Virus record (IMG/VR): IMGVR_UViG_2778261087_000003 | DNA from: a virus | Taxonomy: Duplodnaviria; Heunggongvirae; Uroviricota; Caudoviricetes | Length of the DNA: 64,000 nt | Reading direction: 5' to 3' (one strand) | Shown: in pieces, positions 1 through 1,589 of the stretch | Numbering within the stretch: the first letter of the stretch is position 1 | Layout of the letters: the number at the start of each line of letters is the position of its first letter | Translations under genes and position numbers: made by a program | The notes under the pieces: model-generated | Database searches by the model: none | Told to the model about the DNA's origin: nothing | What the model saw: only the letters and a program-made list of their open reading frames with translations

Positions 1-354
1 ACCTGGGAAGTGCTGGCCCGTCAGCTGAAAAAGGCGCGTCAGCAGTATATCAGTGCACAGAACAAAAGAATAAAAACCGCCACCCGCACCAGCCGTGGAG
101 ACCAGTTTGCCGAAGGCTGGGTGCTGGCCGTTATCAGTGAAATACAGTCCTTCGCCCTGACCGATGACGAACGTGAACTGATGCAGCAGTGGCTGGAACA
201 TAAATACCCGCAGACGCAAACCACCAGGGCGCGTAAACCGGGAAGAAGCCGCAATGGCGACGCCTCGCGCTATGCGGGGTTTCGTGAAGGGCAGAACGTC
301 AGACTGCACCGCCCGGTCAGTGGGCAGGAACAACAGAAACTGGAGGCCAGATGA
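1..354 (+). CDS. hypothetical protein, 5'-truncated at window edge
   Basis: Reading frame open from nt 1 (listed ORF 10..354 starts at internal GTG); stop overlaps next start (ATGA); same strand as downstream coupled genes. Confidence 0.45.
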   Translation, partial: TWEVLARQLKKARQQYISAQNKRIKTATRTSRGDQFAEGWVLAVISEIQSFALTDDERELMQQWLEHKYPQTQTTRARKPGRSRNGDASRYAGFREGQNVRLHRPVSGQEQQKLEAR

Positions 355-581
355 TTACGCTATCAGGTAACAGCCGGAAATTAAAAGCCTGCCGAATATC
401 TGCCAGATACCTTTTTGCCCGCGCCTTTTTTAAGAACGTCAGGCCGGGGATCACAATTGGTGTTATTGCCGGACGCGAACAGGTTGAAAAATACATGTCA
501 GGTGCATGGTGGAATAACGACCCTGTCATTGCTGCCCGTAATATTCATATCAGTTGGGGGGATATTCAGAATGACTGCTGA
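351..581 (+). CDS. hypothetical small protein (76 aa)
   Basis: ATG overlaps upstream stop; GGAGG 4-5 nt upstream; part of chain of overlapping ORFs. Confidence 0.3.
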   Translation: MITLSGNSRKLKACRISARYLFARAFFKNVRPGITIGVIAGREQVEKYMSGAWWNNDPVIAARNIHISWGDIQNDC

Positions 582-786
582 ATCTGTTGTATGTGCCCTG
601 TTCTGGTATTGTTTTGTCGGTTGGTGTACTGCTGAACTGCACCGCCGTTCAGGGTTTTATTCACGTTACAGTGGTGCTGGCTACTGGATTAGTTGGTCGG
701 TGATGTTCCTGTGCTGGCCTGTGGCGCTTCCTTTATATGTCGATTATATCGGTGGCGCAGGTAAAAGGAGCAACGATGATGACTAA
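571..786 (+). CDS. small hydrophobic protein (71 aa)
   Basis: Internal ATG at 571 of ORF 415..786 preceded by G-rich SD; hydrophobic Trp/Cys-rich sequence; overlaps both neighbours. Confidence 0.3.
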   Translation: MTAESVVCALFWYCFVGWCTAELHRRSGFYSRYSGAGYWISWSVMFLCWPVALPLYVDYIGGAGKRSNDDD

Positions 787-1228
787 ACAACGTCTTATCC
801 AGCTCATTCATATTGCCCGTAATGAACTGGGTATGGATGAAGACACCTACCGCCAGATGTTACAGGGGCTGACCGGTAAAGCCTCAACCAAAGGAATGGA
901 TACCACACAACTAAACTGCGTGCTGGAATCCATGAAAAGGAAAGGCTTTCGCGTTAAGCCTGCCGGAAAAGCCAGCTCCGGTTTACCGCTGGATAACCAT
1001 CCGCAGTCCAGGAAAATCCGTGCGCTATGGCTTGAAATGGCTGCTGCCGGCATTGTTCGTGACCGTTCAGAAAATGCATTAGCGCGGTGGATCAAGCGGG
1101 AAACGGGCATCAGCGCCCTGCGCTGGCTCAATACTGAACAGGCAAGTAGTGTTATTGAGAAACTGAAGAAGTGGCAGCGCAGAGCTGCGGGAGTAAAACA
1201 TGAGCGACCTGAATCAGTTTCGAAGTAA
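776..1228 (+). CDS. GemA-like protein (phage Mu gp16 / DUF1018 family)
   Basis: AAGGAG SD at 764-769 then ATG 776; N-terminus ...RLIQLIHIARNELGMDEDTYRQMLQGLTGKAS... matches my recollection of the GemA/gp16 family. Confidence 0.6.
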   Translation: MMTKQRLIQLIHIARNELGMDEDTYRQMLQGLTGKASTKGMDTTQLNCVLESMKRKGFRVKPAGKASSGLPLDNHPQSRKIRALWLEMAAAGIVRDRSENALARWIKRETGISALRWLNTEQASSVIEKLKKWQRRAAGVKHERPESVSK

Positions 1229-1589
1229 AGGGCCGGAACTCCTGGTGGAACTGGCACAGCATACCTCTGAGACCGTTCGCGAGATTATTGATATTGAGCC
1301 CGCAATTGCCGACCAGATTGGTCAGGCCGTCGCGAACCGCATGATGCAGGTCTGGGGCGGGCAAAACGTTTATTTCCCGATGGGCATGGTATGGAAGGTC
1401 AGTCAGCGCGACCGGGAAATCTTCAGGGAGTTTAACGGACGTAACCACCATGAACTGGCCCGCAAATTTGGTGTTTCGCTTCAGTGGGTCTACAGCGTGG
1501 TTAAGCGGGTAAGAAAAGAAGAACTGGATCGGATGCAGGGCAAGCTATTTGCTGATGAACCCGATGTAGATACGGAGAAAAAAGAGTAA
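1200..1589 (+). CDS. Mor/C-family transcriptional activator-like protein (129 aa)
   Basis: C-terminal FNGRNHHELARKFGVSLQWVYSVVKR resembles the HTH region of Mu Mor; same length as Mor; overlaps GemA-like gene. Confidence 0.6.
   Translation: MSDLNQFRSKGPELLVELAQHTSETVREIIDIEPAIADQIGQAVANRMMQVWGGQNVYFPMGMVWKVSQRDREIFREFNGRNHHELARKFGVSLQWVYSVVKRVRKEELDRMQGKLFADEPDVDTEKKE

What the first reader, a model, noticed from the sequence alone, without database searches (positions are those of the whole stretch)
351..1589. Mu-like GemA/Mor gene pair in a translationally coupled operon upstream of sit
The ORFs at 776-1228 and 1200-1589 resemble Mu GemA (gp16) and the Mor/C late activator family (FNGRN...ELARKFGVS...VY HTH), in the same order as in Mu. 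They are chained by overlapping start/stop codons to two small upstream ORFs. A Mor-like activator alongside Lpa would imply a second layer of late-gene control; I cannot tell from memory whether P1 itself carries this pair.
Basis: partly seen in the sequence, partly recalled or inferred. Interest (0 to 1): 0.35.

Follow-up and report, generated by a model that had tools for sequence, protein, structure and literature searches.

The report
Mu-like prophage end inside P1 sit
The GemA/Mor gene pair is real but does not belong to P1: it is the last 1.75 kb of a common Mu-like transposable prophage that jumped into, and split, the sit gene of a P1-like plasmid, so it is an ordinary, already annotated gene pair in an unusual place.

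Summary
Observation confirmed. ORFs 779-1228 and 1200-1589 are full-length Pfam GemA (E 1e-40) and Mor (E 1e-43) proteins. They end a chain of overlapping ORFs.

Interpretation only partly right. A sharp junction lies at 1752/1753. Bases 1-1752 are the right terminus of a BcepMu-like transposable prophage. They are 100% identical to an E. coli chromosomal copy, and at least 89 E. coli genomes carry it with differing host flanks where shown. Bases 1753-64000 are P1-like DNA that starts at codon 88 of sit.

I found the source contig (GCA_002486955.1, NNXF01000006.1, 130,020 bp) and read the other junction. The prophage (about 35.9 kb, TG...CA ends) is flanked by a 6-bp target duplication, TCTCGT. 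The "sit" ORF at 1894-4914 is therefore a 5'-truncated remnant.

P1 has no GemA or Mor homologue. Complete relatives carry a single Mor/C-family gene and exactly four copies of a Mu-Pm-like 5-6-5 dyad in front of the lysis, head, tail and baseplate operons. None occurs in the P1 DNA.

So Mor most likely switches on the prophage's own late genes, not P1's. Known family, known prophage type; low interest.

The parts
1..1752 (+). Right-terminal 1.75 kb of a BcepMu-like transposable prophage (about 35.9 kb in the source contig); the distal end of its early operon
   Evidence: 100% identical to E. coli chromosome NZ_CP061758.1 2467844-2469595. At least 89 E. coli genomes match 1-1752 and stop within 6 bases of 1752; the flanking host genes differ where shown (ycaL, hycH, gspL, paaZ, aes and others). 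PhiKM (GenBank taxonomy Bcepmuvirus) is 97% identical.
1..354 (+). 3' part of a DUF2786/DUF7168 gene (227 aa in full; it starts upstream of the window)
   Evidence: Pfam DUF7168 E 1.6e-10; phrog_421; full gene seen in L010 7778-8461
351..581 (+). 76-aa early-operon ORF of unknown function; its start overlaps the previous stop (ATGA)
   Evidence: phrog_3681 E 4e-54 over its full length; annotated as a hypothetical protein in RefSeq relatives
571..786 (+). 71-aa early-operon ORF of unknown function; hydrophobic, probably a small membrane protein (judged by eye)
   Evidence: phrog_6436 E 5e-15; conserved in relatives
779..1228 (+). GemA (Mu gp16 family) gene, 149 aa; an alternative ATG lies at 776
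   Evidence: Pfam PF06252 E 1.1e-40, full profile; the DNA is 100% identical to the stretch RefSeq annotates as 'gp16 family protein' WP_016240621.1
1200..1589 (+). Mor/C-family transcription activator gene, 129 aa; last gene of the early operon and the only Mor/C paralogue in this phage type
   Evidence: Pfam PF08765 E 1.3e-43; Mu Mor 1RR7 E 1e-9 and Mu C 9L0X E 4e-9; no second paralogue by tblastn in complete prophages; corresponds to WP_001281695.1
1597..1642 (+). Stable hairpin followed by a short U run: candidate terminator of the early operon
   Evidence: Minimum free energy -26 kcal/mol, z -3.8, 0 of 200 shuffles fold as well. The U tract is short, so terminator function is inferred only.
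1706..1752 (-). Right terminal repeat region: 5'-TGAT...GAGATAAATG (window 1732-1739) plus a second degenerate copy (1706-1718); the element ends ...TCTAATCA-3'
   Evidence: Both ends begin TGAT and carry GATAAATG at positions 14-21 in inverted orientation; the left end has two copies 23 bp apart. TG...CA termini are described as characteristic of BcepMu-type elements with an Rve transposase (PMC2628397).
1753..1758 (.). Right copy of the 6-bp target-site duplication TCTCGT (sit codons 88-89, Ser-Arg)
   Evidence: The left junction in the source contig reads GGGGACGTT TCTCGT|TGATGCGCCGCG. The right junction reads TCTAATCA|TCTCGTGTAGTT. The empty site in P1 and in plasmid p91 reads GGGGACGTT TCTCGT GTAGTT. 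Chromosomal copies also have 6-bp duplications.
1753..4914 (+). 3' remnant of P1 sit (codons 88-1140 plus stop), cut off from its start codon and from the late promoter LPsit; the first in-frame ATG is at 1894
   Evidence: Colinear with P1 from 44149 downwards at 98.3% identity. P1 sit is 40988-44410 on the minus strand. An in-frame TAA at 1747-1749 rules out a fusion ORF. The 89-codon 5' fragment (WP_244580378.1) lies at the other prophage end, 35.9 kb away.

Best explanation
Window 1-1752 is the right end of a complete or nearly complete BcepMu-like transposable prophage of about 35.9 kb. The prophage has an rve-type DDE transposase, an AAA+ MuB-like helper, Gam, TG...CA termini and a 6-bp target duplication. 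It transposed into codons 88-89 of sit on a 94-kb P1-like plasmid prophage of E. coli. In this phage type the early operon runs outwards from a central repressor region to the right end, in this order: ner-like HTH, DUF3102, transposase, ATPase, gam, small ORFs, DUF2786, 76 aa, 71 aa, gemA, mor. GemA and Mor are therefore the last two genes before the terminus and by accident abut the remnant of sit.

Shown: the family identity of both proteins, the prophage boundaries, the target duplication, the disruption of sit, and the absence of these genes from P1.

Inferred: after derepression the tightly overlapping early ORFs are translated from one transcript. Mor, the sole Mor/C-family protein of this phage, then binds a 16-bp element made of 5-bp inverted repeats (yTTAA/TTAAw) around a G/C-rich 6-bp spacer. 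The element is centred about 42-43 bp upstream of the start implied by the -10-like hexamer. It precedes four late operons (lysis, head, tail, baseplate) and would recruit sigma-70 RNA polymerase as Mu Mor does at Pm. That makes a two-tier cascade (early, then Mor, then late) rather than Mu's three tiers. GemA presumably modulates host physiology as reported for Mu gp16 (my own knowledge, untested here).

Consequence for P1 (inferred): Sit is inactivated, and pmgA, bplA and gene 16 are separated from LPsit. The P1-like element is then probably tail-defective but still maintained as a plasmid.
For: Family identity.

Junction at 1752/1753: every P1 relative matches only from 1753, and every Mu-like relative only up to about 1752. 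At least 89 E. coli genomes carry the 1-1752 stretch, and the host genes listed under the matches differ.

Phage organisation: complete prophages that split paaZ and gspL show the gene order, the TG...CA ends and 6-bp duplications.

Source contig: found. The predicted 89-aa Sit N-terminal fragment ending in a phage-derived TGA is on record for a single contig of 130,020 bp, the length of the source contig, and one search places it on NNXF01000006.1. The left junction, read directly, gives the duplication TCTCGT. The lengths add up: 94,147 bp of P1 plus 35,873 bp of prophage make 130,020 bp.

Empty site: seen in P1 and in plasmid p91. P1 lacks homologues.

Mor targets: one Mor/C gene per prophage. 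The motif YYTAA-N6-TTAAWATC occurs exactly 4 times in 43 kb against 0.02 expected. All four lie on the late strand in the gaps ahead of the holin, protease/head, tail and baseplate operons. The fourth site was not used to derive the motif. All four are kept in KP12, which is about 88% identical, two exactly and two with one base changed, while the spacer shown for the head-operon site differs. The architecture matches the published Mor site at Pm: a 16-bp element with 5-bp inverted repeats and a G/C-rich hexanucleotide spacer, centred at -43.5, with no -35 hexamer (PMC4390567).
Against: The prophage is split by the ends of the contig inside its invertible tail-fibre segment, so its completeness (35.9 kb against 36.2 kb in NZ_CP061758.1) rests on assuming a circular contig. 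No expression or binding data exist. The -10-like hexamers are weak (GATGCT, CAAACT, CATACT, AATACT) and no transcription start sites are known. Three of the four motif sites were used to define the motif. The hairpin after mor has only a short U tract. The insertion point coincides with the end of a repeat unit at which other P1-like sit genes carry a tandem duplication and at which short-read contigs break. I treat that as coincidence.
Confidence: 0.9

Rival explanations
1. One reading: GemA/Mor are accessory regulators native to this P1-like phage. They would be co-transcribed in an operon leading into sit and would add a Mor-type layer to Lpa-dependent late control.
For: Physical adjacency and the same strand as the sit remnant. 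Lpa lies elsewhere in the window's P1 part.
Against: Similarity to P1 begins exactly at 1753, inside sit codon 88. P1 and its closest plasmid relative have an intact sit and no GemA or Mor. Both prophage ends with a 6-bp duplication are present in the source contig. An in-frame stop and a hairpin separate mor from the sit remnant. No Mor-type dyad occurs in the P1 DNA of the window even with one mismatch.
Confidence: 0.01
2. The junction is an assembly chimera (a false join between a chromosomal Mu-like prophage and a P1 plasmid contig), not a real insertion.
For: The contig starts and ends inside the prophage's invertible segment. The junction was not found in any other public collection searched. 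It also lies at a repeat boundary where other assemblies break.
Against: A false join needs shared sequence, and there is none at either junction. Both junctions fall exactly at the phage's terminal TG and CA and are flanked by a perfect 6-bp direct repeat of the target. That is the same duplication length as in two independent chromosomal insertions. The P1 sequence is otherwise uninterrupted and complete at 94.1 kb.
Confidence: 0.03
3. The prophage is a cryptic, decaying remnant. GemA and Mor would then be intact ORFs that are never expressed or have no functional targets in this copy.
For: Completeness across the contig break is unverified (35.9 kb against 36.2 kb). Some relatives carry IS insertions in the baseplate genes (L006).
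Against: 1-1752 is 100% identical to a chromosomal copy and all five ORFs are intact. The 10 kb upstream shows an intact repressor, transposase, ATPase and gam. The left end has the invertase and tail-fibre genes. A perfect target duplication suggests a recent event.
Confidence: 0.1

Closest known systems
Bacteriophage Mu gemA (gp16) - mor (gp17) pair and the Mor/C activator family (Pfam PF06252, PF08765; PDB 1RR7, 9L0X, 9L0Y)
   Same: Same two families in the same order, as the last genes of the early operon. The Mor-like protein aligns with Mu Mor over residues 9-113, including the conserved GG-VY-P-G...RD...FNGRN..EL....GV....VY block. The candidate target sites have the same 5-6-5 dyad layout about 43 bp upstream, with no -35 hexamer, as described for Pm.
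   Different: Similarity to Mu Mor and C is distant (E about 1e-9). There is only one Mor/C-family gene instead of Mu's Mor plus C, so probably one activation step. The early operon runs towards the genome end, so the pair sits 163 bp from the terminus rather than about 9 kb inside.
BcepMu-like (Bcepmuvirus-type) transposable prophages of Enterobacteriaceae, for example Escherichia phage PhiKM (PQ738613) and prophages in NZ_CP061758.1, NZ_CP025851.1 and NZ_CP024275.1
   Same: 97-100% DNA identity over 1-1752. Same gene order, rve-type transposase, TG...CA ends, 6-bp target duplication and differing insertion sites.
   Different: Here the target is the sit gene of a P1-like plasmid prophage rather than the chromosome. 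No other record in the phage, plasmid or complete E. coli genome collections has this junction.
Phage P1 late regulation (Lpa with LP promoters) and the LPsit operon pmgC-tub-pmgB-sit-pmgA-bplA
   Same: The window downstream of 1753 is colinear with P1 at 94-98% identity, apart from one short 85% piece and several blocks with no match.
   Different: P1 has no GemA or Mor. Its late promoters use a -22 box plus a -10 (annotation), not a Mor-type dyad. In this plasmid the LPsit operon is split by the prophage.

Membership tests
Mor/C transcription activator family (Pfam PF08765) | Full-length match to the family profile above the curated threshold | tested here: met
   147.8 bits against a cutoff of 24.9, profile 1-107 of 107; phrog_532 'late transcriptional activator' E 2e-45
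Mor/C transcription activator family (Pfam PF08765) | Sequence similarity to the experimentally characterised members Mu Mor and Mu C, including the C-terminal helix-turn-helix region | tested here: met
   1RR7 E 1.1e-9 (query residues 9-113); 9L0X E 3.7e-9 (residues 42-120); weak HTH_23 and HTH_29 hits at residues 80-110
Mor/C transcription activator family (Pfam PF08765) | Target promoters with a -10 hexamer, no -35 hexamer, and a dyad-symmetric activator site centred near -43 | tested here: met
   Sequence prediction only, and outside the window. Four YYTAA-N6-TTAAWATC sites per complete prophage against 0.02 expected, each about 36 nt from dyad centre to the end of a -10-like hexamer, ahead of four late operons; all four kept in KP12, two exactly and two with one base changed. 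Compare the Pm description in PMC4390567.
Mor/C transcription activator family (Pfam PF08765) | Binds that site and activates sigma-70 RNA polymerase | not testable with these tools
   Needs EMSA or footprinting and reporter or in vitro transcription assays
GemA (Mu gp16, Pfam PF06252) | Full-length match to the family profile; located immediately upstream of mor and overlapping it | tested here: met
   139.7 bits against a cutoff of 27, profile 1-119 of 119; 29-nt overlap with mor
GemA (Mu gp16, Pfam PF06252) | Modulates host gene expression or DNA topology (phenotype described for Mu; my own knowledge) | not testable with these tools
BcepMu-like transposable phage | rve-type DDE transposase with an AAA+ helper, TG...CA termini, and differing insertion sites with a short target duplication | tested here: met
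   PF00665 on the 589-aa product and AAA_22 on the next gene. Termini and 6-bp duplications at three independent sites. Different host genes flank different copies. The TG...CA and Rve criterion is quoted from PMC2628397.
Native component of the P1 genome or late regulon | Present in P1 or P1-like genomes at this position, or P1 promoters carrying its binding site | tested here: not met
   No homologue in P1; empty site in P1 and p91; no dyad motif in the window's P1 DNA with up to 1 mismatch

The most novel reading that the evidence does not exclude
The composite P1::BcepMu-like plasmid is more than an accident. Either the Mu-like early operon reads through the weak hairpin after mor and drives the promoterless sit'-pmgA-bplA-16 genes, or its Mor-like activator cross-talks with P1 genes. 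The two prophages would then be regulatorily coupled, with the transposable phage using a phage-plasmid as a vehicle for horizontal spread.
Probability: 0.04. Interest if true: 0.4.

Novelty: already known. Interest (0 to 1): 0.14.

Why it matters
Mainly as a correction. A Mor-type activator next to P1 late genes would have suggested new P1 regulation. Instead it marks a prophage-within-prophage insertion that has probably inactivated the P1 tail gene sit.

It is a clean natural example of a transposable phage landing in a phage-plasmid, with both junctions and the 6-bp duplication verified. I found no other instance of this junction in the collections searched.

As a by-product, the analysis predicts the regulatory logic of the common enterobacterial BcepMu-like prophages: one Mor/C-type activator and four Pm-like late promoters. 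That prediction is cheap to test.

Tried and rejected
- **Junction scans:** exact searches for the right junction (genome contigs, viral contigs, metagenome contigs) and for the predicted left junction found nothing. The source is not in those collections.
- **BLAST collections:** megablast against phages, plasmids and complete E. coli genomes found no record spanning 1752/1753.
- **NCBIfam:** no hit for any of the four ORFs.
- **Literature:** searches for gemA function and for Mu-like insertions in P1-like phage-plasmids gave nothing specific.
- **Sit N-terminus homology search:** it returned only fragment clusters, not the wanted ORF. The ORF was then found by guessing its exact sequence.
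- **Other 89-aa Sit fragments:** I considered whether they record the same insertion in other samples. Rejected for the one contig that reaches past the site: it continues with G, the next base of uninterrupted sit. The other two end exactly at TCTCGT and say nothing either way. All three are contig-end breaks at a repeat boundary.
- **Second Mor/C paralogue:** I looked for a Mu C equivalent in the prophage and found none.
- **Terminator scan:** the consensus scan found no terminator after mor. Folding revealed a hairpin with a short U tract.

Full report
**1. The observation.**

The ORF list and the sequence show five same-strand ORFs chained by overlaps:
- ...-354, whose TGA overlaps the ATG at 351
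- 351-581
- 571-786
- 779-1228 (alternative ATG at 776)
- 1200-1589

Pfam assigns 776-1228 to GemA (PF06252, E 1.1e-40, whole profile) and 1200-1589 to Mor (PF08765, E 1.3e-43, whole profile). The first ORF is the C-terminus of a DUF2786/DUF7168 protein. PHROGs agrees and places the two small ORFs in phage families of unknown function. The Mor-like protein matches the solved Mu Mor (1RR7, E 1e-9) and Mu C (9L0X, E 4e-9).

**2. The context is not P1.**

Megablast of 1-2000 against phages, plasmids and complete E. coli genomes shows a knife-edge boundary. Mu-like records match 1 to about 1752. Every P1-type record matches only from 1753.

Evidence on the two sides of the boundary:
- The left part is 100% identical to a chromosomal prophage in E. 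coli NZ_CP061758.1 and 97% identical to phage PhiKM, which GenBank classifies as Bcepmuvirus.
- At least 89 E. coli genomes carry the whole 1-1752 stretch. The match stops within a few bases of 1752, and the host genes listed under the matches differ from genome to genome (ycaL, hycH, rayT, gspL, paaZ, aes and others). That pattern is what a transposable phage leaves.
- The rest of the window (1753-64000) is colinear with P1, running 44149 down to 1 and then 94800 down to 76255. A few blocks are replaced.
- P1 coordinate 44149 is the first base of sit codon 88 (sit CDS 40988-44410, minus strand).
- An in-frame TAA at 1747-1749 closes the sit frame from the phage side. The 'sit' ORF at 1894-4914 is therefore a promoterless 5'-truncated remnant.

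**3. Proof of transposition.**

Complete relatives that split paaZ (L006) and gspL (L007) give the ends of the element. The sequence runs 5'-TGATGCGCCGCGCGATAAATG ... CAAGTCTAATCA-3', and the target duplications are 6 bp (ACCCGC and CCCAGG). This predicted a left junction in P1 of ...GGGGACGTT TCTCGT|TGATGCG. That would create an 89-codon Sit fragment ending in a phage-derived TGA.

An exact-protein look-up of the truncated Sit ORF found the source: NCBI GCA_002486955.1, contig NNXF01000006.1, 130,020 bp. The window is record 32001-96000.

I then guessed the 89-aa fragment. One variant is on record as WP_244580378.1, on a single contig of 130,020 bp, the same length as the source contig. Fetching its locus confirmed that it lies on NNXF01000006.1 and let me read the junction directly. 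It reads GGGGACGTT TCTCGT|TGATGCGCCGCGCGATAAACG, and is followed by the phage invertase and tail-fibre genes.

The prophage occupies record 127,900-130,020 plus 1-33,752. That totals 35,873 bp if the contig is circular, and leaves 94,147 bp of P1-like plasmid. The empty site in P1 and in the closest plasmid (p91, NZ_CP023381.1) reads GGGGACGTT TCTCGT GTAGTT.

**4. Anatomy of the phage.**

A central repressor region separates two sets of genes. Leftward lie the late operons: holin-lysis-terminase-head, then tail, then baseplate and fibres, with an invertase at the left end. Rightward lies the early operon: ner-like HTH, DUF3102, rve transposase, AAA+ helper, gam, small ORFs, DUF2786, 76 aa, 71 aa, gemA, mor.

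GemA and Mor therefore lie 163 bp from the right terminus. After mor comes a stable hairpin at 1597-1642 (z -3.8, short U run), which is a candidate early terminator. Then come the terminal repeats: GATAAATG sits at positions 14-21 from each end, in inverted orientation. TG...CA ends together with an Rve transposase are the published hallmark of BcepMu relatives (PMC2628397).

**5. How the pair most likely works.**

tblastn finds only one Mor/C-family gene per prophage.

The gaps upstream of the lysis, head and tail operons share the sequence yyTAA-N6-TTAAwATC, followed about 21-23 nt later by a -10-like hexamer. Used as a pattern, it hits exactly four times in 43 kb, against 0.02 expected. 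The fourth hit, which was not used to build the pattern, lies in the gap ahead of the baseplate operon. All four are on the late strand.

All four sites persist in Klebsiella phage KP12, which is about 88% identical: two exactly and two with one base changed. At the head-operon site, where both sequences were read, the spacer differs.

The layout is a pair of 5-bp inverted repeats around a G/C-rich hexamer. By my count the dyad centre lies about 42-43 bp upstream of the start implied by the -10-like hexamer, and there is no -35 hexamer. This is the layout described for the Mor site at Mu Pm (PMC4390567). Cryo-EM work shows that Mor and C recruit RNA polymerase through alpha-CTD, sigma-70 region 4 and the beta flap (bioRxiv 10.1101/2025.05.02.651988).

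I therefore infer a two-tier cascade in which this Mor directly activates four late promoters of its own phage. GemA's role (host modulation, as reported for Mu gp16) rests on my own knowledge and is untested here.

**6. No link to P1 regulation.**

- P1 has no GemA or Mor homologue. The best tblastn hit has E 0.04, in parB.
- The dyad motif is absent from the window's 62 kb of P1 DNA even with one mismatch.
- It is also absent from the 10 kb of the source plasmid upstream of sit.
- P1 itself has a single one-mismatch hit, inside res. That stretch has no match in this window.

The likely consequence runs the other way. Sit is split, and pmgA, bplA and gene 16 are detached from LPsit (annotation). 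The P1-like element is then probably tail-defective but still maintained as a plasmid. This is an inference.

**7. Verdict.**

The gene pair is a textbook member of known families in a widespread prophage already annotated by RefSeq ('gp16 family protein', 'Mor transcription activator family protein'). The modest points of interest are a verified transposable-phage insertion into a phage-plasmid, and a testable promoter prediction for this phage group.

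Noticed in passing
window 34205-35612 (ORF 34246-35550, minus strand): Where P1 carries the EcoP1 res/mod type III restriction genes, this plasmid has a short block with no match to P1. It encodes a 434-aa SIR2-like domain protein (Pfam SIR2_2, E 1.6e-23), a candidate anti-phage defence gene at the P1 restriction locus.
   Followed up: partly
window 46340-55071: About 8.7 kb with almost no match to P1, lying between the humD/hot region and pmgT. It is packed with small minus-strand ORFs, including DUF551 and two Ead/Ea22-like proteins, and looks like a variable accessory block.
   Followed up: partly
window 9435-11635, 19625-20743 and 21529-22212: Further blocks without a megablast match to P1. 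The first falls in the variable part of the tail-fibre/C-segment region. The others fall around the place where P1 has IS1 and isaA/isaB.
   Followed up: no
L009 (plasmid p91, NZ_CP023381.1) 943-1500; proteins P0015, P0016, P0029; loci L012-L014: Some P1-like sit genes carry a tandem duplication of about 99 codons near the N-terminus, giving a Sit of 1263 aa against 1140 aa in P1. Short-read contigs repeatedly end at the repeat boundary ...LGDVSR and so yield many 89-aa 'partial' Sit proteins. The Mu-like insertion happens to lie at exactly this boundary.
   Followed up: partly
proteins P0004 and P0006 (72 aa, on contigs of 95,459 and 59,574 bp): Other short products share the Sit N-terminus but then continue with unrelated C-terminal residues, on large contigs. 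Sit may therefore be disrupted at other points in other P1-like plasmids.
   Followed up: no
L007 10129-10147, 16480-16498, 22397-22415, 29864-29882 (minus strand); the same sites in L003, L006 and L008: There are four conserved 5-6-5 dyads (yTTAA-N6-TTAAw), each followed by a -10-like hexamer, ahead of the baseplate, tail, head and lysis operons of the BcepMu-like prophages. These are predicted Mor-dependent late promoters and lie outside the window.
   Followed up: yes
L006 (NZ_CP025851.1) 7186-8987: This chromosomal copy of the same prophage type has an IS100 insertion splitting its baseplate J-like gene, so some family members are defective.
   Followed up: no
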